DNA of 64,000 bases. Origin: Gaiellaceae bacterium (lineage in GTDB: Bacteria > Actinomycetota > Thermoleophilia > Gaiellales > Gaiellaceae). Made by a program: the position numbers and the translations under genes. Numbering within the stretch: position 1 is the first letter of the stretch; each line of letters begins with the position of its first letter. Positions 31,703-37,186 of this stretch are shown here, piece by piece. The notes beneath the pieces are model-generated. The model had not been told where the DNA came from and ran no database searches. It saw nothing but the letters and a program-made list of their open reading frames with translations. The stretch covers positions 32,076 to 96,075 of the forward strand of contig DASRDA010000003.1 of the NCBI GenBank assembly GCA_035652835.1. Reading direction: 5' to 3'.

Positions 31703-32125
31703 ATGGGCGGCGGTGGTATGAATCGCGCCGTGGCCGGGCCGGCGCTCGACGCGCTCAGCAGGGTTCCGCTCTTCGCGGATCTCGGCGAGGACGAGCTGCA
31801 GGAGATCGCCGGCTCGATGCACGTGCGCGAGTTCGCCGCGGGCGAGGTCGTAACGGCCGAGGGCGCGGGCGCCGACGCGTTCTTCGTGGTCGACGCGGGC
31901 GAAGGTGAGGTGAGCGTGCAGGGCGAGCCGCGCGCCACCGTCGGCCCCGGCGACTACTTCGGCGAGATCGCGCTCATGATGGGCGCGGAGCGCACCGCGA
32001 CCGTCACCGCTGCCACCGACCTCCGCTGCTTCGCGTTGACGCCGGAGGACTTCCGCACCGTCGTCGAGGGCAACCCGGCGATCGCGTGGAAGCTGCTCGG
32101 CTCGACGATGGACAAGCTCTCCTAG
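31703..32125 (+). CDS. cyclic nucleotide-binding domain protein (stand-alone cNMP domain)
   Basis: VPLFADLGEDELQEIA ... GDYFGEIALMMGAERTATV matches the cNMP-binding beta-barrel and phosphate-binding cassette. No DNA-binding domain is present. Confidence 0.8.
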   Translation: MGGGGMNRAVAGPALDALSRVPLFADLGEDELQEIAGSMHVREFAAGEVVTAEGAGADAFFVVDAGEGEVSVQGEPRATVGPGDYFGEIALMMGAERTATVTAATDLRCFALTPEDFRTVVEGNPAIAWKLLGSTMDKLS

Positions 32126-32243
32126 CGCGCCGTCGGCGGAAGAACGGGCGCGCGGCGGCCGTCTGGCGGACGAGGCCGTTGAACAGTGCCGGAACGGGAG
32201 GTACGTTCGGAGTCGTGCGCGGGCAGGGCGGGGAGAGGGCGGC

Positions 32244-35200
32244 GTGACGCTGGAGGGCCAGATGCTGGAAACGCCCTCGTCTGCCGTGCGCGACTCCGCC
32301 GAGCTTCCCGAGTACGACTGGGACGAGATCCGCCGGCACGATCGGCCGGGCGACTACTGGCTCGTCTTCGGCGGCGACGTCTACGACGTCAGCGAGTGGA
32401 TCCACCACCATCCGGGCGGGGCGCGGGTCTTCCTGTCGAACCTCGGGCGCGACGCGACCGAGGCGCACGCCTCCGTCGGCCACTCGGAGGAGGCCATGGC
32501 CGCCGCCGAGTCGTTCCGGATCGGCCGCCTCCGGCAGGCGCCGGCCGAGGTGACGGTCGAGCCGGCCGGCGGCGGCGGCCCGCTCGAGATTCCGTACGCG
32601 GTGCGCTGGCTCGTCCCGAAGGGCGAGCGGTTCGCGAACTTCGACGTCCTGAACGACAACGACACGCAGCTCGAGTACTACCGCCGCTTCGGCCACATCT
32701 ACGCGGTCGGCATCCCGACGAAGAAATGGCGCATCGTGGTCGTCTCCGACCCCCAGCTCCTCGACGAGGTCGCGGCGAACGAGGAGCAGTTCGGCAAGCG
32801 CGTCGAGGAGATCAACTTCTTCGCGCAGCTCGCGAACTCGCGCGGCGGCGGCATCTCGGTGATCGGCGACGGCGCGCACTACGAGCGCGTGCGCCGCGTG
32901 ATGCTGCCCTGGTACGCGCCCTCACATCAGCGGACGCAGCTCGAGCGCATGAAGGAGCAGGCGCGGAAGCTCGTCGCCGCGTGGGCGCGGCTGCCCGACG
33001 ACCAGCCGCTCGACGCGCGGGCGTGGATCGAGCGCTACACCCTCGAGGTCTCCGGCCGCGGCGCGTGCAACTACGACTTCGGCCTCCTCGACGACGGAGA
33101 GCCGCACCCGTTCGCGAGCGCCGTGCCCGAGAGCACGAAGGAGAGCATCCTCCGCGTCGCCGAGCCGCGCCCCGACTCGCCGCTCCTGCTCGGCCGTGCG
33201 CGCCGCGCGCGCAGGAGGCGGTACCGCCGCCACAACCGTGAGCTCTTCGAGACGGCCGACGCGCTCGTCCGCGGGCGCGCGCACACCTGCCCGCTCGGGC
33301 AGCAGACCGACCTGCTCACGCGGCTGCTCACCGTCCCGGATCCCGAGACCGGCGAGCGCCTCGACCTCGAGACCGTGCGCGACCAGATCCTCATGCACCT
33401 CTCGAACGGCTTCAACGGGCCGTCGATCACCGGCGCCTGGCTCGCGTACGTGCTCGCGACGCGGCCGGACATCGAGGAGAAGCTGATCGCGGAGATCGAC
33501 GCCATCGCGGGCGGCGACCCCGAGTACGACCTGCAATACGAGGACCTGATGGCGATGCCGTACGCGACGCAGGTGATCAAGGAAACGCTGCGCATCTACC
33601 CGCCGATGCCGATCACCGTGCGGCGCAGCCTCAAGGACGGCATGCTCGGCCGCTACCGCATCCGCAAGGGCGACATCGTCTTCGTCGGCACGCTCGCCGC
33701 GCAACGCGACCCTCGCTACTGGGAGAACCCGGACGAGTTCGACCCCGAGCAGTTCGCGATGGACAAGGTCGTCGCGCGGCCGCGCCACGCGTTCATCCCG
33801 TTCTCGATCGGCAAGCGGCAGTGCATGGCGCAGGAGGTCACGTTCATGATGCTGCGGGTCCTCCTGTTCGAGCTCTACAACCGCTACCGGCTGCGGCTCG
33901 CGCCGGGGGCGACGGTGGTGAAGAACACGGTCGTGACGACCAAGCCGGCGTCGGTGCCCGTCGTGCGCCTCCTCCGCGAGGGCAGGGAGGAGCGGCGGCG
34001 GTCGCTCGCGCGGCGCCGGCAGACGGCGGACGAACGGCCCGTCGCGGCCGCCGCGCCGGACGCGGCGCGCGACTGGGACCGCCCGTCCGAGATCCCGGCC
34101 GGGAGCCCGTACCGGCATCTCGTGGTCGCCTACGGAAGCAACTTCGGCATGAACAAGGGCCTCGCCGAGCGCTTCGCCGGACGCAGCCGCCGCTACGGCC
34201 ACACGAGCGAGGTCGTCACGCTGGACGAGCTCGCGGCGCAGCCGCCGCGCACCGAGCCGTGGCTGCTCGTCGTGATGACGGCGACCTACACGTCGAACCC
34301 GCCCGGCAACGCCGTCGCCTTCCGCACGCTGCTCCAGGAAGCCCGTCCGGGCGACGCGCCGTGGCGCGACTGCCGCTACCTGGTCTGGGGCCTCGGCAAC
34401 AGCCAGTGGAACGCATTCCTCGCCTTCCCGCGCTACGTGCACGAGCGGCTGGCCGCGCTCGGCGCGACCCCGGTGGCGGAGTTTGCCTTCGCCGACGTCG
34501 GCTCGCCCGTGTGGGAGGAGGCGCACGCGGAGTGGAACGACCGCGTCTGGCCCGCGCTGCTCGAGCTCTCCGGCGCGCGGGCGACCGAGGCCGCGGCCGC
34601 GCGCGTGGCCGCGGAACGAGCGGCCGCGGGCAGGCTGACGGGCGCCGACTCGAACACCGCGATGGCGCGGTCGCTCGCCGCCGACGTCGCGCCGCGCGTC
34701 CTGCTCGCCCCCACGATCCTCACCAACGCCGTCGGCCTCCAGACGTTCCAGGCCCGCGCGCTCGTGTGCCGGGAGCTGCAGGCGGAGGAGTCGCCGAAGC
34801 GGACGCGGCACCTCGAGGTCAGCCTGCCGCCGGGCACCACCTACCGCGCCGGCGACCACCTCTGCATCTGCCCGAAGAACGACGAGGAACGCGTCGAGCG
34901 GCTGGCGCGGCACCTCGGCGCGGCGCTCGACGGGCTCTTCATGGTGCCGAAGAGCATGAACGTCCAGGCGGTACCGAAGGGCGTCGTGCTGCAGGTGCGG
35001 AACGTGCTCACGAGCCTGGTCGACATCGCCGGCCCGCCGACGCTGCCGCTGATCGACCTGCTGCTGGCGAAGGCCGCCGACGCCGGCGAGCGCGCGGAGC
35101 TGGAGGCGATCCGCGACGTTCTCCGCGAGCCCGGCGGGCCGGACTCGCCGCTGCGGGCGGCGATCCACGGCGGCGCCTACGACGTGCTGCGCCTGCTCGA

Positions 35201-35936
35201 GGACTTCCCTTCCTGCCGGCTGAACGTCTACGAGCTCCTGCAGGTCGTGCAGCCGCTCCGACCGCGCTACTACTCGACCAGCTCGAGCCCGCGGGTCCAC
35301 GGCGAGGGGGTCGCCCACGTCGCGGTCGGCTACGAGGCGGCGCCGGTGCCGGGCATGCCCGACCGCACGTTCGCCGGCATGAGCGCGAGCTACGTGCACT
35401 CGCTGCGCGAGGGCGACCGCCTCGACGTCTTCCTCGACGGCGCCGACGGCTTCCACCTGCAGGAGGACGTCTCGAAGCCGATGATCTTCGTCTCCGCCGG
35501 GACCGGCTTCGCGCCGATGCGCGCGTTCCTCTGGGTGCGGCTCGCGCTCGCGCGCGCCGGTGTCCCGCTCGGAGAGGCGGCGCTCTTCAACGGGATCCGC
35601 TCGGCGAGCCTCGACTACATCTACCGCGACGAGATCGAGCGCTTCGCTGCGGAGGGCGTGCTCGACCACGTCCACGTCGTCACCTCACGCGAGCCGGCGA
35701 AGCGGCGCGAGCACGTGCAGGACCGCATCCGCGACGACGGCGCGCTGGTCTGGCGGCTGCTCGACGCGGGAGGCTACGTGTACGTCTGCGGCTCGCAGCC
35801 GATGCGGGAGGGCGTGCGCGCCGCGTTCGTGGACATCGTCGCCGAGCGGCGGCCGATGCCGCGCGAGCACGCCGAGGCGTACCTGGACGAGCTCGAGAAC
35901 GTCGAACGCCGCTACCGCCCCGACCTCTGGGGCTGA
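32244..35936 (+). CDS. cytochrome b5-like / cytochrome P450 / NADPH-P450 reductase (FMN+FAD) triple-fusion protein
   Basis: 1230-aa single ORF. b5 HPGG and VGHS contexts. P450 EXXR ETLR, FDPEQF, and Cys loop FSIGKRQCMAQE. CPR motifs LVVAYGSNFG, RYYSTSSSP, GTGFAPMRAF and YVYVCGS. Confidence 0.9.
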   Translation: MTLEGQMLETPSSAVRDSAELPEYDWDEIRRHDRPGDYWLVFGGDVYDVSEWIHHHPGGARVFLSNLGRDATEAHASVGHSEEAMAAAESFRIGRLRQAPAEVTVEPAGGGGPLEIPYAVRWLVPKGERFANFDVLNDNDTQLEYYRRFGHIYAVGIPTKKWRIVVVSDPQLLDEVAANEEQFGKRVEEINFFAQLANSRGGGISVIGDGAHYERVRRVMLPWYAPSHQRTQLERMKEQARKLVAAWARLPDDQPLDARAWIERYTLEVSGRGACNYDFGLLDDGEPHPFASAVPESTKESILRVAEPRPDSPLLLGRARRARRRRYRRHNRELFETADALVRGRAHTCPLGQQTDLLTRLLTVPDPETGERLDLETVRDQILMHLSNGFNGPSITGAWLAYVLATRPDIEEKLIAEIDAIAGGDPEYDLQYEDLMAMPYATQVIKETLRIYPPMPITVRRSLKDGMLGRYRIRKGDIVFVGTLAAQRDPRYWENPDEFDPEQFAMDKVVARPRHAFIPFSIGKRQCMAQEVTFMMLRVLLFELYNRYRLRLAPGATVVKNTVVTTKPASVPVVRLLREGREERRRSLARRRQTADERPVAAAAPDAARDWDRPSEIPAGSPYRHLVVAYGSNFGMNKGLAERFAGRSRRYGHTSEVVTLDELAAQPPRTEPWLLVVMTATYTSNPPGNAVAFRTLLQEARPGDAPWRDCRYLVWGLGNSQWNAFLAFPRYVHERLAALGATPVAEFAFADVGSPVWEEAHAEWNDRVWPALLELSGARATEAAAARVAAERAAAGRLTGADSNTAMARSLAADVAPRVLLAPTILTNAVGLQTFQARALVCRELQAEESPKRTRHLEVSLPPGTTYRAGDHLCICPKNDEERVERLARHLGAALDGLFMVPKSMNVQAVPKGVVLQVRNVLTSLVDIAGPPTLPLIDLLLAKAADAGERAELEAIRDVLREPGGPDSPLRAAIHGGAYDVLRLLEDFPSCRLNVYELLQVVQPLRPRYYSTSSSPRVHGEGVAHVAVGYEAAPVPGMPDRTFAGMSASYVHSLREGDRLDVFLDGADGFHLQEDVSKPMIFVSAGTGFAPMRAFLWVRLALARAGVPLGEAALFNGIRSASLDYIYRDEIERFAAEGVLDHVHVVTSREPAKRREHVQDRIRDDGALVWRLLDAGGYVYVCGSQPMREGVRAAFVDIVAERRPMPREHAEAYLDELENVERRYRPDLWG

Positions 35937-35950
35937 CCGCCGGAGGCCGC

Positions 35951-36121
35951 ATGGACCTGCTCGCACTGATCTTCACCGTCGCCGCGCTGATCATGTTCGT
36001 GTTCGCGGCGAGCGGCCGGGAGCTGCGCCGCTTCAACGAGATCGCGCTCGGCCTCGTCTTCCTGTCCGCGGCGCTGATCTGCCAGTTCACCGCGATCACG
36101 AACACGCACATCGGCGGGTAG
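35951..36121 (+). CDS. small two-TM membrane protein (56 aa)
   Basis: ATG preceded by GGAGG, 15 nt after the P450 stop. GC3 near 100%. Sequence MDLLALIFTVAALIMFVFAASG...LGLVFLSAALICQF. Confidence 0.55.
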   Translation: MDLLALIFTVAALIMFVFAASGRELRRFNEIALGLVFLSAALICQFTAITNTHIGG

Positions 36122-36130
36122 CCGCCGCGG

Positions 36131-37186
36131 TTACTGGGGCGGGCCGCTGCCGAGCGTGAGCGTGACGGCACCGCTCGCGCCCGTCTGGTCGGTGTACGTG
36201 ACCTGGACGGCGGCGCCCGGCTTCTTCGAGAGCACGACCGTGGTGAGGCTCTGCGGCGTCGTGATCGCGCGCCCGTCGACCGCGGTGATCACGTCGCCCG
36301 GCGCGAGCCCCGCCGAGTCGGCCGGCCCGCCGGGGACGACGGCCGCGATCAGCGCGCCGGGCGCCGTCTCGCCGAAGCCGTCCGAGGCCGCCTGCACCTC
36401 GACGCCGAGGAAGGCGGTGCCGCCGACGTGCACCGTCGCCGAGGACTCACCGGCGGCGATCCGGCCCGCCACCGCCAGCGCCTTCCCGATCGGGATCGCG
36501 TACGCGTCGCTGGTGGGCGTCCGGAAGGCGATGCCGAAGCCGGAGCCGGTCGAGGCGGCGGTGTCCATGCCGACGACGCGGCCGGAGGCGTCGAGCAGCG
36601 GGCCGCCGGAGTCGCCGGGCTGGACGTTCGCGTCGGTCTCGATCAGGCCGGTCAGCCGCTCGGCGTGGCCCTCCTCGTCGCCGGCGGTGATCGTCTTGCC
36701 GAGGCCGATGATCTTCCCGGCCGCGGCGGTGAGCGAGCCGGTGCCGTTCGCGTTTCCGAGCGCCTTCACCGGCTGCCCGATCCGGAGCCTCGCCGAGGCC
36801 GCCGTCGAAACGGTCTTCAGGTTCGACGCGCCGCTCAGCTGGAGCAATGCGACGTCGCTGGTCACCGAGTAGCCGAGCACGCGCGCGGCGTAGCTGCGGG
36901 CCGTTCCCGGCACGACCACCCTGATGGTCGTGGCGCCGTTGATCACGTGGTTGTTGGTGAGCACCCGCCCGGACGGCGTCAGCACCATCCCGGTGCCGGC
37001 CGCCTGGCCGCCCTCGTAGCCGAGGTTGGTCTCGATCACGACGACGCCGGTGCCGATGCGGGTCGCGGTGCCGCGCGCGAACGCGAGGCCGGCGGTCAGC
37101 CCGAGCGCGGACAGCCCCGCGGCGACGAGCAGGGCGACACGGATGCGATGGCGGCGGAAGCTGTTCACGTCTCCAGTGGTACCCAC
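36131..37186 (-). CDS. trypsin-like serine protease with PDZ domain (HtrA-like, S1C)
   Basis: N-terminal TM, triad contexts TNNHVI, DVALLQL and GDSGGPL, and a C-terminal PDZ (GLAPGDVITAVDG). Confidence 0.88.
   Translation of the reverse strand: MGTTGDVNSFRRHRIRVALLVAAGLSALGLTAGLAFARGTATRIGTGVVVIETNLGYEGGQAAGTGMVLTPSGRVLTNNHVINGATTIRVVVPGTARSYAARVLGYSVTSDVALLQLSGASNLKTVSTAASARLRIGQPVKALGNANGTGSLTAAAGKIIGLGKTITAGDEEGHAERLTGLIETDANVQPGDSGGPLLDASGRVVGMDTAASTGSGFGIAFRTPTSDAYAIPIGKALAVAGRIAAGESSATVHVGGTAFLGVEVQAASDGFGETAPGALIAAVVPGGPADSAGLAPGDVITAVDGRAITTPQSLTTVVLSKKPGAAVQVTYTDQTGASGAVTLTLGSGPPQ

What the first reader, a model, noticed from the sequence alone, without database searches (positions are those of the whole stretch)
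32244..35936. Cytochrome b5 - P450 - diflavin reductase triple fusion (CYP102/BM3-like layout with an extra N-terminal heme domain and an atypical I-helix)
One uninterrupted 1230-codon ORF carries three modules.

1. Residues about 20-98 form a b5-like heme-binding domain with both axial His contexts (WIHHHPGG and ASVGHSEEA).
2. A P450 domain has EXXR (ETLRIYPP), FDPEQF and the Cys-ligand loop FIPFSIGKRQCMAQE.
3. A CPR-type reductase has an FMN module (LVVAYGSNFGMNKG), the FAD motif RYYSTSSSP, the NADPH motif GTGFAPMRAF and a C-terminal aromatic residue (DLWG).

Characterised self-sufficient CYP102 enzymes are two-module P450-CPR fusions. To my knowledge, an additional fused b5 is not part of that architecture.

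The I-helix segment reads HLSNGFNGPSITGAW, with no obvious (A/G)Gx(D/E)T acid-alcohol pair. The residue two positions after the Cys ligand is Ala rather than the usual Gly. Both hint at non-standard O2 activation or electron routing.

The gene is flanked by a stand-alone cNMP-binding protein (31703..32125) and a 56-aa two-TM protein (35951..36121).
Basis: partly seen in the sequence, partly recalled or inferred. Interest (0 to 1): 0.7.

Follow-up and report, generated by a model that had tools for sequence, protein, structure and literature searches.

The report
Cytochrome b5–P450–reductase fusion enzyme family
This gene encodes a single protein that joins a cytochrome b5, a P450 and its NADPH reductase; it belongs to a widespread, unstudied enzyme family of uncultured soil bacteria that has an unusual active-site helix and almost always sits next to a tiny membrane-protein gene.

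Summary
ORF 32244..35936 (+, 1230 aa) carries Cyt-b5, p450, Flavodoxin_1, FAD_binding_1 and NAD_binding_1 in that order, all above Pfam cut-offs. Both b5 axial histidines (H56, H80) and the cofactor motifs are intact.

- **Not unique:** the P450–reductase core is 65–79% identical across more than 120 protein clusters. At least 101 genome stretches match, and all 80 loci kept are MAGs (Gaiellaceae/Thermoleophilia, other Actinomycetota, Chloroflexota).
- **Not CYP102:** it is 28% identical to BM3. The next P450s in a 1.84-billion-protein library are at most 34% identical.
- **The N-terminal module varies:** one b5 (as here), two b5, one or two FHA domains, or none. A tree rooted on a 57%-identical sister makes b5 ancestral and repeatedly lost.
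- **Two constant features:** the I-helix `HLSNGFNGPS` (Asn-Gly where BM3 has Glu267-Thr268), and a 56-aa two-TM protein (35951..36121) directly downstream in 74 of 76 loci.

Most likely it is a membrane-associated BM3-type NADPH-driven P450. The b5 would be a dispensable auxiliary electron carrier, and O2/proton handling is non-canonical. The substrate is unknown. Seven literature searches found no description. I rate it a new variant of a known kind.

The parts
32244..35936 (+). Whole gene: 1230-aa b5-P450-CPR flavocytochrome (GTG start, TGA stop at 35934-35936)
   Evidence: ORF listing. Five Pfam domains above cut-off. An identical protein, P0001, is annotated only as 'cytochrome P450 [Gaiellaceae bacterium]'.
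32230..32239 (+). Shine-Dalgarno-like GGGGAGAGGG, 4 nt before the GTG start
   Evidence: Read directly from the sequence.
32319..32531 (+). Cytochrome b5 domain (residues 26-96) with axial His56 (HPGG) and His80 (GHS)
   Evidence: PF00173, 71.9 bits. Ungapped alignment to solved b5 structures, E 6.5e-14. Both His motifs are at least 90% conserved in 51 family b5 domains. AF2 pLDDT is 80-92.
32532..32582 (+). Flexible Pro/Ala/Gly-rich b5-P450 linker (residues 97-113)
   Evidence: pLDDT is below 50 for residues 99-112. Length and sequence vary among homologues.
32583..33983 (+). P450 heme-thiolate domain (residues 114-580)
   Evidence: PF00067, 211.8 bits. 28% identical to the BM3 heme domain. 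Nearest folds are CYP102L1, P450DA, BM3, CYP97A3, CYP184A1 and CYP505A30.
33396..33425 (+). I-helix motif HLSNGFNGPS (residues 385-394): N391-G392 replace the acid-alcohol pair
   Evidence: Alignment to BM3. Present in 107 of 111 proteins where the I-helix regex matched, and SNGFNG in 78 of 81 sources (80 loci plus the window). The sister lineage P0245 has HLAHGADTPA at the same place.
33792..33836 (+). Cys-ligand loop FIPFSIGKRQCMAQE (residues 517-531; Cys527)
   Evidence: The FxxGxRxC signature is intact. The loop is near-invariant in the family.
34119..34556 (+). FMN (flavodoxin-like) domain, residues 626-771
   Evidence: PF00258, 52.1 bits. Aligns to BM3 residues 471-612. Y682 and W722 align to the BM3 residues in ...TASYNGHPP... 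and ...GDKNWATTY...; I take these, from memory, to be the FMN-stacking Y536 and W574. Both are invariant in the family.
34740..35327 (+). FAD-binding domain, residues 833-1028 (RYYSTSSSP)
   Evidence: PF00667, 100.7 bits. Aligned to the BM3 and CPR FAD domains. R1008, Y1010 and S1011 are invariant.
35487..35933 (+). NADPH-binding domain and C-terminus, residues 1082-1230 (GTGFAPMRAF; YVCGS; PDLWG)
   Evidence: PF00175, 48.2 bits. C1182, D1227 and W1229 are invariant. 116 of the 120 retrieved proteins end in an RYRPD(L/V/I)W-x type C-terminus.
35942..35946 (+). Shine-Dalgarno GGAGG for the small downstream gene
   Evidence: Read directly from the sequence.
35951..36121 (+). 56-aa two-TM hairpin protein, the near-constant partner gene, 14 nt after the P450-CPR stop
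   Evidence: Present directly downstream in 74 of 76 loci with downstream DNA, 71-96% identical. 738 clusters at 90% identity; of the 120 listed, 106 are exactly 56 aa. Nucleotide identity at codon positions 1/2/3 is 0.87/0.95/0.68. No Pfam family above cut-off and no PDB relative.
31703..32125 (+). Stand-alone cNMP-binding protein (140 aa): lineage-specific upstream neighbour, possibly regulatory
   Evidence: PF00027, 62.6 bits. Upstream on the same strand in 12 of 80 loci, mostly Gaiellaceae/Thermoleophilia-labelled MAGs, next to both b5-containing and b5-less forms.

Best explanation
The gene encodes a functional three-module flavocytochrome: cytochrome b5, then a P450, then an FMN/FAD/NADPH diflavin reductase. 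It belongs to a sharply delimited, uncharacterised family of self-sufficient P450s from uncultured soil Actinomycetota and Chloroflexota. Its conserved genetic unit is the P450-reductase gene plus a 56-aa two-TM protein gene.

Shown:
- All cofactor-binding signatures are intact and conserved.
- The b5 has both axial histidines.
- The family is isolated from other P450s.
- The NG I-helix and the small partner gene are near-universal in the family.
- The N-terminal module varies (b5 x1, b5 x2, FHA x1, FHA x2, none), and b5 is the ancestral state.

Inferred mechanism:
- Electrons flow NADPH -> FAD -> FMN -> P450 heme, as in P450 BM3.
- The b5 heme acts as an auxiliary one-electron relay, reduced by the FMN domain. 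It supplies or tunes delivery of the second electron to the oxy-ferrous P450, as microsomal b5 does. This would improve coupling but is dispensable, which fits its repeated loss and its replacement by phosphopeptide-binding FHA domains.
- The small TM protein tethers the enzyme to the cytoplasmic membrane, or presents a substrate there.
- The substrate is probably a lipid-like, possibly anionic molecule. The nearest folds are fatty-acid and lipid P450s, and a conserved K160-K161-W-R163 sits where BM3 has R47.
- Asn391-Gly392-Pro393 replace Glu-Thr-Thr, so O-O activation cannot use the canonical Thr-mediated proton relay. It must rely on water or substrate-assisted protonation, or on a ferric-peroxo or otherwise non-Compound-I route.
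For: - Domain order and scores.
- Whole-length similarity to BM3 (363 bits, three stretches) and to CPRs.
- b5 ligands and their conservation.
- Invariant FMN, FAD and NADPH residues (Y682, W722, R1008/Y1010/S1011, C1182, D1227, W1229).
- Family size and the N-terminal variants (42 none, 46 FHA, 32 b5 among the top 120 clusters).
- Taxonomic spread (101 genome stretches match; all 80 loci kept are MAGs).
- Isolation of the family (at least 56% identity among members, then at most 34%).
- 28% identity to BM3.
- Invariant HLSNGFNGPS.
- The sister lineage P0245 is also b5-fused but has a canonical G-A-D-T.
- The outgroup-rooted tree gives b5 as the ancestral state.
- Small TM gene in 74 of 76 loci, under purifying selection.
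- Structural neighbours are CYP102L1, P450DA, BM3, CYP184A1 (oleic acid complex) and CYP505A30.
- No other conserved neighbour gene.
Against: - No substrate, product or spectrum is known, so every mechanistic step past cofactor binding is inference.
- The b5-to-P450 electron route is unsupported by structure. The AF2 model (pLDDT 72, pTM 0.67) is poor in the beta-region and the Cys loop and gives no coordinates. No core position cleanly tracks b5 presence.
- Replacing b5 with FHA domains, which are not redox modules, could mean the N-terminal module serves recruitment or regulation rather than electron transfer.
- By my reading of the alignment against bovine b5, most of the classical acidic docking residues of microsomal b5 are not conserved here.
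- Two loci (L040, L049) keep the NG motif but lack the small gene, so that partnership is not absolute.
- The single examined locus of the D-T sister lineage is too little to prove that the NG motif and the TM partner arose together.
Confidence: 0.55

Rival explanations
1. The b5 is an electron output rather than a helper of the fused P450. The reductase reduces b5, which then passes electrons to a separate acceptor such as a membrane desaturase, hydroxylase or other oxidoreductase. The polypeptide would then be a branched redox hub.
For: From general knowledge, eukaryotic CPR can reduce b5 and b5 is the usual donor to desaturases. The double-b5 forms look like an extended relay. The b5 sits at the far N-terminus on a flexible linker.
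Against: No desaturase-like or other acceptor gene is conserved next to the gene. b5 is lost in most family members without a stand-alone b5 gene appearing within +-8 kb, while the P450-CPR core stays 70-80% identical. The core function therefore does not depend on b5.
Confidence: 0.15
2. The P450 domain is not an O2-activating monooxygenase. It uses reductase electrons for other heme-thiolate chemistry at the membrane. Examples would be reduction or rearrangement of lipid hydroperoxides (Asn in the I-helix as in CYP74/CYP8A), reductive chemistry, or ferric-peroxo C-C cleavage of the kind that b5 stimulates in CYP17A1.
For: The acid-alcohol pair is invariably replaced by Asn-Gly-Pro, while the sister lineage keeps Asp-Thr. 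A membrane partner is present. From general knowledge, P450s that lack the Thr often do atypical chemistry.
Against: From general knowledge, CYP74 and CYP8A need no reductase and have a modified Cys loop. Here a complete, conserved reductase and a canonical FxxGxRxC loop are kept. Several true monooxygenases lack the Thr (EryF) or have Asn at the acid position (the CYP7 family), also from general knowledge. No direct evidence exists for any substrate.
Confidence: 0.2
3. It is simply a divergent CYP102-type fatty-acid hydroxylase. The b5 is an evolutionary decoration with little functional consequence.
For: The best sequence and structure matches are CYP102 enzymes and other fatty-acid P450s. 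Basic residues sit at the position of BM3 R47. b5 is dispensable in relatives.
Against: It is 28% identical to BM3, with no intermediates in 1.84 billion representatives. The non-canonical I-helix is invariant. A dedicated membrane partner gene accompanies it, which is not known to me for CYP102. The b5 His ligands stay conserved wherever b5 is present, which argues for a maintained function.
Confidence: 0.1
4. The 56-aa downstream product is a ribosomal peptide substrate (RiPP precursor) that the P450 modifies.
For: P450 genes next to very small ORFs are known in RiPP clusters (review PMC10124130, listed, not read in detail). The partner is short and has a conserved C-terminal CQFT..TNTHIG.
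Against: The peptide consists of two roughly 18-20-residue hydrophobic segments around a basic loop. It is 71-96% identical across phyla along its whole length, with no variable core. It lies downstream of the enzyme. No protease, transporter or other RiPP gene is conserved nearby.
Confidence: 0.03

Closest known systems
P450 BM3 (CYP102A1) and other class VIII self-sufficient P450-CPR fusions (CYP102 family, fungal CYP505)
   Same: P450 is N-terminal to an FMN/FAD/NADPH diflavin reductase in one chain. It is the best sequence match over the whole length (8dmg, E 2.5e-107) and among the best fold matches. The FxxGxRxC, EXXR, FMN, FAD and NADPH motifs are conserved.
   Different: The heme domain is only 28% identical. 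There is an extra N-terminal b5 (FHA or nothing in relatives). Asn-Gly-Pro replaces Glu267-Thr268-Thr269. A 56-aa membrane protein is co-encoded.
Eukaryotic microsomal triad: P450 + NADPH-P450 reductase + cytochrome b5
   Same: The same three redox components are present. The b5 domain is most similar to microsomal and outer-mitochondrial-membrane b5 (E 1e-13 to 1e-14). The CPR part matches rat and human CPR over 600 residues (E about 1e-62). Membrane association is suggested by the TM partner.
   Different: Here all three are fused in one bacterial polypeptide, and the membrane anchor is a separate small protein. By my reading of the alignment, the b5 acidic docking residues are largely not conserved.
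Fungal CBBR (cytochrome b5 - b5 reductase fusion) serving CYP540A2 (PMC12462446)
   Same: A natural fusion in which b5 is covalently linked to a flavin reductase and feeds a fatty-acid P450.
   Different: In that system the P450 is a separate protein and the reductase is an NADH-b5 reductase, not a diflavin CPR. Here the P450 itself is part of the fusion.
P450s without the conserved I-helix threonine or acid (CYP107A1 EryF, CYP176A1 P450cin, CYP74, CYP8A1, CYP152)
   Same: All lack the canonical acid-alcohol proton relay. Asn is present in the I-helix, as in P450cin, CYP74 and CYP8A1 (from general knowledge).
   Different: There is no sequence kinship beyond the superfamily. CYP74, CYP8A1 and CYP152 need no reductase, whereas this protein keeps a complete fused one. 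The exact motif SNGFNGPS was not found described in any paper retrieved.

Membership tests
Class VIII self-sufficient P450-CPR fusion (BM3-type architecture) | P450 domain followed in the same polypeptide by flavodoxin-like FMN, FAD-binding and NAD(P)H-binding domains | tested here: met
   Pfam order is p450 144-559, Flavodoxin_1 628-746, FAD_binding_1 833-1028, NAD_binding_1 1082-1192. Three-stretch match to full-length BM3.
Class VIII self-sufficient P450-CPR fusion (BM3-type architecture) | Conserved heme-thiolate loop and flavin/NADPH-binding residues | tested here: met
   F520-x-x-G523-x-R525-x-C527; Y682 and W722 (FMN); R1008/Y1010/S1011 (FAD); C1182, D1227 and W1229. All are invariant in alignment A1.
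Class VIII self-sufficient P450-CPR fusion (BM3-type architecture) | NADPH-driven substrate oxidation without external redox partners | not testable with these tools
   Requires expression and an enzyme assay.
CYP102 family (P450 nomenclature) | More than 40% amino-acid identity of the P450 domain to a CYP102 member | tested here: not met
   28% identity (121/438) to the CYP102A1 heme domain. Foldseek reports 24-25% identity to CYP102L1 and BM3. Only CYP102A1 and CYP102L1 were compared directly.
CYP102 family (P450 nomenclature) | I-helix acid-alcohol pair (Glu267-Thr268 in BM3) | tested here: not met
   Asn391-Gly392 sit at those positions and are invariant in the family.
Cytochrome b5 (PF00173, heme-binding subgroup) | Match to the Cyt-b5 model above the curated cut-off | tested here: met
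   71.9 bits against a cut-off of 23.7, covering profile positions 2-73 of 74.
Cytochrome b5 (PF00173, heme-binding subgroup) | Two axial histidines (HPGG and GHS contexts) with canonical spacing | tested here: met
   His56 and His80, 24 residues apart, align to the ligands of solved b5 structures. Both are at least 90% conserved in 51 family b5 domains.
Cytochrome b5 (PF00173, heme-binding subgroup) | Bound low-spin heme b with a b5-type spectrum and redox potential | not testable with these tools
   Needs the purified protein.
CYP74 / CYP8A-type peroxide-rearranging P450s | No redox partner needed; modified Cys-ligand loop; catalytic Asn in the I-helix | tested here: not met
   A complete, conserved reductase is fused and the Cys loop is the canonical FxxGxRxC. 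Only the presence of Asn in the I-helix resembles these families.
CYP152 peroxygenases | Arg-Pro at the acid-alcohol position; H2O2-driven with no reductase | tested here: not met
   The motif here is Asn-Gly-Pro and a reductase is present. The NCBIfam CYP152 model scores 39 bits against a cut-off of 600.
DUF6220 (PF19728), for the 56-aa partner protein | Score above the Pfam gathering threshold | tested here: not met
   17.9 bits against 29.8. Matches are sub-threshold in 22 of 23 members (best E 6.5e-4), plausibly a hydrophobic-composition effect.

The most novel reading that the evidence does not exclude
The family is a bacterial all-in-one counterpart of the microsomal b5/CPR/P450 system whose true holoenzyme includes the 56-aa membrane subunit. 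In this reading its invariant Asn-Gly-Pro I-helix supports NADPH-driven heme-thiolate chemistry on a membrane lipid that is not classical Compound-I hydroxylation, for example hydroperoxide reduction or ferric-peroxo C-C cleavage. Activity would be gated in different lineages by interchangeable N-terminal modules: b5 for redox tuning, and FHA plus a Ser/Thr-rich hinge insert for phospho-regulation of reductase domain motion.
Probability: 0.2. Interest if true: 0.8.

Novelty: new variant of a known kind. Interest (0 to 1): 0.62.

Why it matters
Self-sufficient P450-reductase fusions such as BM3 are the workhorses of P450 biocatalysis and the main models for inter-domain electron transfer. A natural version that also carries b5, and relatives that carry FHA domains instead, is an evolutionary experiment on a long-debated question: what b5 does for a P450, whether second-electron delivery or an allosteric effect.

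Close homologues with and without b5 exist side by side and could be compared directly.

The family is common in uncultured soil Actinomycetota and Chloroflexota. It is unusually conserved for a P450 (70-80% identity across MAGs labelled as different phyla), has a unique I-helix, and has a dedicated small membrane partner. Together these point to an unknown, probably housekeeping, lipid-related reaction in major soil lineages. It would also define a new CYP family.

Tried and rejected
1. **Assembly or frameshift artefact:** rejected. The same fusion occurs in many independent assemblies, and the b5 segment has the same codon-position GC as the rest of the ORF.
2. **b5-like domain as a non-heme ligand-binding (MAPR-type) domain:** rejected. 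Both axial His are present and conserved.
3. **Operon context:** I looked for a metabolic gene cluster. Only the 56-aa gene is conserved, plus the cNMP-binding gene in 12 of 80 loci. The other window neighbours are unrelated and not syntenic: MreB, VWA, PfkB, an HtrA-like protease and an AAA-LuxR regulator.
4. **Stand-alone b5 genes near b5-less homologues:** none within +-8 kb.
5. **AF2 model of residues 1-600 to judge b5 docking:** pLDDT 72, pTM 0.67, poor in the beta-region and the Cys loop, and no coordinates are returned. No docking inference was made. The only finding is that the I-helix is predicted as continuous.
6. **Core positions that co-vary with b5 presence:** no clean signal. The best columns (612 and 615 in the P450-FMN linker, 749 in the FMN domain) hold in only 58-67% of single-b5 forms.
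7. **Family assignment of the small protein:** nothing above threshold in Pfam and nothing in the PDB.
8. **Literature:** seven full-text searches found no description of natural b5-P450-CPR or FHA-P450-CPR fusions. This covers only the open-access library.
9. **Search for a cultured carrier:** none seen among the 80 reference loci kept or among the source names of the protein hits. A further 21 genome matches were not listed.

Full report
**1. The observation**

An SD-like GGGGAGAGGG lies 4 nt upstream.

Pfam finds five domains in the stated order, all well above the curated cut-offs:
- Cyt-b5, residues 26-96, 71.9 bits
- p450, 144-559, 211.8 bits
- Flavodoxin_1, 628-746, 52.1 bits
- FAD_binding_1, 833-1028, 100.7 bits
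- NAD_binding_1, 1082-1192, 48.2 bits

No NCBIfam model reaches its cut-off. Against the PDB, the best whole-protein match is full-length P450 BM3 (8dmg, E 2.5e-107, three stretches). CPRs follow, matching over about 600 residues.

The N-terminal 113 residues match solved microsomal and mitochondrial b5 structures without gaps over 74 residues (E 6.5e-14). His56 (HPGG) and His80 (GHS) fall on the two axial ligands, 24 residues apart.

The codon-position GC profile of the b5 segment equals that of the whole ORF, with GC3 of 0.96-0.97. An identical protein is on record from four contigs as 'cytochrome P450 [Gaiellaceae bacterium]'. The fusion is real.

**2. How it relates to BM3**

The P450 domain is 28% identical to the BM3 heme domain. 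That is below the 40% rule for a CYP family. The protein therefore has the BM3 layout (class VIII) without being a CYP102.

HMMER and BLASTP give the same I-helix register. BM3 A264-G265-H266-E267-T268-T269 corresponds to N388-G389-F390-N391-G392-P393.

A 57%-identical sister protein, P0245, confirms this register independently. It reads HLAHGADTPA where the query reads HLSNGFNGPS, so a canonical Asp-Thr lies exactly at N391-G392.

The Cys loop keeps FxxGxRxC (F520...C527). Ala at Cys+2 is invariant in the family, and the canonical-I-helix sister has it too. I therefore do not treat it as mechanistically informative.

All reductase signature residues are invariant in a 15-sequence alignment spanning the family. 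These are Y682 and W722 for FMN, R1008/Y1010/S1011 for FAD, and C1182, D1227 and W1229. Their functional assignment is by alignment to BM3 and CPR and from my own knowledge.

An AF2 model of residues 1-600 is of moderate quality (pLDDT 72, pTM 0.67). The b5 domain is confident, the 99-112 linker is disordered, and the I-helix is predicted as one continuous helix (375-406). The beta-rich region and the Cys loop are poor, and I drew no docking conclusion.

Foldseek places the P450 domain nearest to CYP102L1, P450DA, BM3, CYP97A3, CYP184A1 (solved with oleic acid) and CYP505A30, with a target TM-score of about 0.7.

**3. The family**

A search of 5.8 billion clustered proteins returned 527 hits at E <= 1e-20 (only the 8000 best word-sharing candidates were scored). 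The top 120 are all 65-79% identical over at least 91% of the query.

The N-terminal module differs among them:

| N-terminal module | Clusters (of 120) |
|---|---|
| No domain | 42 |
| Two FHA domains | 36 |
| One FHA domain | 10 |
| Two tandem b5 domains | 19 |
| One b5 domain (as here) | 13 |

The I-helix string MHLSNGFNGPS occurs in 107 of the 111 proteins where the pattern matched. The Cys loop FIPFS[IV]GxRQCMAQE occurs in nearly all.

An exhaustive HMMER search of 1.84 billion 50%-identity representatives shows a sharp boundary. Members and their fragments are at least 56% identical; everything else is at most 34%.

In GTDB species genomes, 101 stretches encode a relative. All 80 best loci are MAGs, and none is an isolate. 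Their labels are Gaiellaceae, Thermoleophilia, Solirubrobacterales, Acidimicrobiaceae, Streptosporangiaceae, Jatrophihabitantaceae and Chloroflexota. A few bins are labelled Gemmatimonadota, Verrucomicrobiota or Proteobacteria.

Seven of the 80 loci carry b5. No stand-alone b5 gene lies within +-8 kb of the others.

A search with a lower-GC divergent fragment (P0266) found no cultured carrier either, and added further b5-containing clusters.

**4. Order of events**

I built an NJ tree on 1101 core columns:
- The double-b5 forms form one clade.
- The single-b5 forms, including this protein, form a basal grade interleaved with domain-less forms.
- The FHA forms form one derived clade.

Rooted on P0245, which is itself b5-P450-CPR, Fitch parsimony assigns b5 to the root and to the ingroup ancestor, with 10 changes on the tree.

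The b5 fusion is therefore old and has been lost or replaced several times, while the core stayed 70-80% identical. The NJ/parsimony treatment is simple and the deep branching is not bootstrapped. The direction (b5 ancestral) rests on one outgroup sequence.

**5. The conserved partner**

No metabolic gene cluster surrounds the gene. The window neighbours are MreB, a VWA protein, a PfkB kinase, an HtrA-like protease and an AAA-LuxR regulator. None of them is syntenic in other loci.

The cNMP-binding gene lies upstream on the same strand in 12 of 80 loci, mostly Gaiellaceae/Thermoleophilia-labelled MAGs.

The 56-aa ORF at 35951..36121 is different:
- It starts 14 nt after the stop codon and has a GGAGG SD.
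- It is directly downstream of the P450-CPR gene in 74 of the 76 loci that have downstream DNA. It is 71-96% identical there, whichever N-terminal module the enzyme carries.
- It forms 738 clusters at 90% identity. Of the 120 listed, 106 are exactly 56 aa.
- Nucleotide identity at codon positions 1/2/3 is 0.87/0.95/0.68, which indicates purifying selection on the protein.
- It consists of two hydrophobic segments around an invariant GRELR(R/H)FNE loop, with conserved Cys44 and His53.
- It matches no Pfam family above cut-off and nothing in the PDB.

The one examined locus of the D-T sister lineage (L081) has no such gene. Two NG-type loci (L040, L049) also lack it.

**6. Interpretation**

Shown:
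- This is a complete b5 + P450 + diflavin reductase chain with all ligand and cofactor motifs conserved.
- It is a member of an isolated, populous, uncharacterised family.
- Two features are constant in the family: an Asn-Gly-Pro I-helix and a small membrane-protein gene.
- One feature varies: the N-terminal module.

Inferred:
- Electrons flow NADPH -> FAD -> FMN -> P450 heme, as in BM3.
- The b5 acts as an auxiliary one-electron relay or effector for the second electron. This is the role debated for microsomal b5 (summarised in PMC12462446).
- That role would be useful but dispensable, consistent with repeated loss.
- The small protein provides membrane tethering or substrate presentation.
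- The substrate is lipid-like. The nearest folds are fatty-acid and lipid P450s, and basic K160-K161-W-R163 sit where BM3 has R47.
- O2 and proton handling does not use the Thr relay.

The main rivals are:
1. b5 is an output to another acceptor.
2. The P450 does non-monooxygenase heme-thiolate chemistry.
3. It is an ordinary divergent fatty-acid hydroxylase.
4. The small ORF is a RiPP precursor (unlikely).

None can be excluded without biochemistry.

**7. Novelty**

Seven searches of the open-access and bioRxiv library found no description of a natural b5-P450-CPR or FHA-P450-CPR fusion. A 2025 paper lists only CYP102 and CYP505 as natural CPR fusions. Subscription literature and the P450 nomenclature lists could not be searched.

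Database records name these proteins only generically.

I rate the finding as a new variant of a known kind. The self-sufficient P450-CPR principle is known. New here are the added b5 or FHA module, the invariant non-canonical I-helix, the dedicated small membrane partner, and the restriction to uncultured soil lineages.

Noticed in passing
Homologues P0029, P0031, P0032, P0035, P0039 and others (no counterpart in the window; corresponds to window residues 804-825, about 34653..34718): Family members with N-terminal FHA domains carry a Ser/Thr-rich insertion of about 40 residues in the FMN-FAD hinge. The median segment is 64 aa, against 17-23 aa in b5 and domain-less forms. This suggests the FHA domains bind a phosphorylated hinge and gate reductase domain motion.
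   Followed up: partly
Homologues P0012, P0018, P0043 and others; loci L001, L005, L006, L033, L045: A Chloroflexota/Solirubrobacterales-type clade carries two tandem b5 domains (about 62% identical to each other) ahead of the P450-CPR core. That gives three hemes and two flavins per chain. P0394 looks like a double form that lost its first b5 but kept the inter-b5 linker.
   Followed up: partly
P0245 / locus L081 4001-8161: A sister lineage (57% identity) is also b5-P450-CPR but has a canonical I-helix (GADT) and a canonical FMPFGTGNRGC loop. It has no 56-aa gene downstream; a 161-aa unrelated ORF is called there instead. It is preceded by a long Pro/Ala/Arg-rich N-terminal extension of about 140 aa.
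   Followed up: partly
window 31703..32125: A stand-alone 140-aa cNMP-binding protein sits immediately upstream on the same strand in 12 of 80 related loci (mostly Gaiellaceae/Thermoleophilia-labelled MAGs), next to both b5-containing and b5-less enzymes. It is possibly a lineage-specific regulator.
   Followed up: partly
P0246 (458 aa, metagenomic): A stand-alone P450-only relative (61% identity) has degraded motifs: I-helix HLSECFYGPS, and Cys loop FAPFSAGPPQCRPDE in which the conserved Arg is replaced by Pro. It is possibly a decaying paralogue.
   Followed up: no
loci L040 and L049: Two related Actinomycetota MAG loci keep the SNGFNG I-helix but have no copy of the 56-aa gene within +-8 kb. 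They are the only exceptions among the 76 loci with downstream sequence.
   Followed up: partly
P0266, P0279 (metagenomic fragments): Lower-GC, Lys-rich relatives (56-63% identity in the P450 part) keep FIPFSVGQRQCMAQE. The family therefore extends outside high-GC Actinomycetota and Chloroflexota. Their source organisms are unknown.
   Followed up: partly
window 36121..36131: The small TM gene ends only about 10 nt from the stop of a convergent HtrA-like protease gene (Trypsin_2 + PDZ, 36131..37186, minus strand). The scan found no intrinsic-terminator-like site between them.
   Followed up: no
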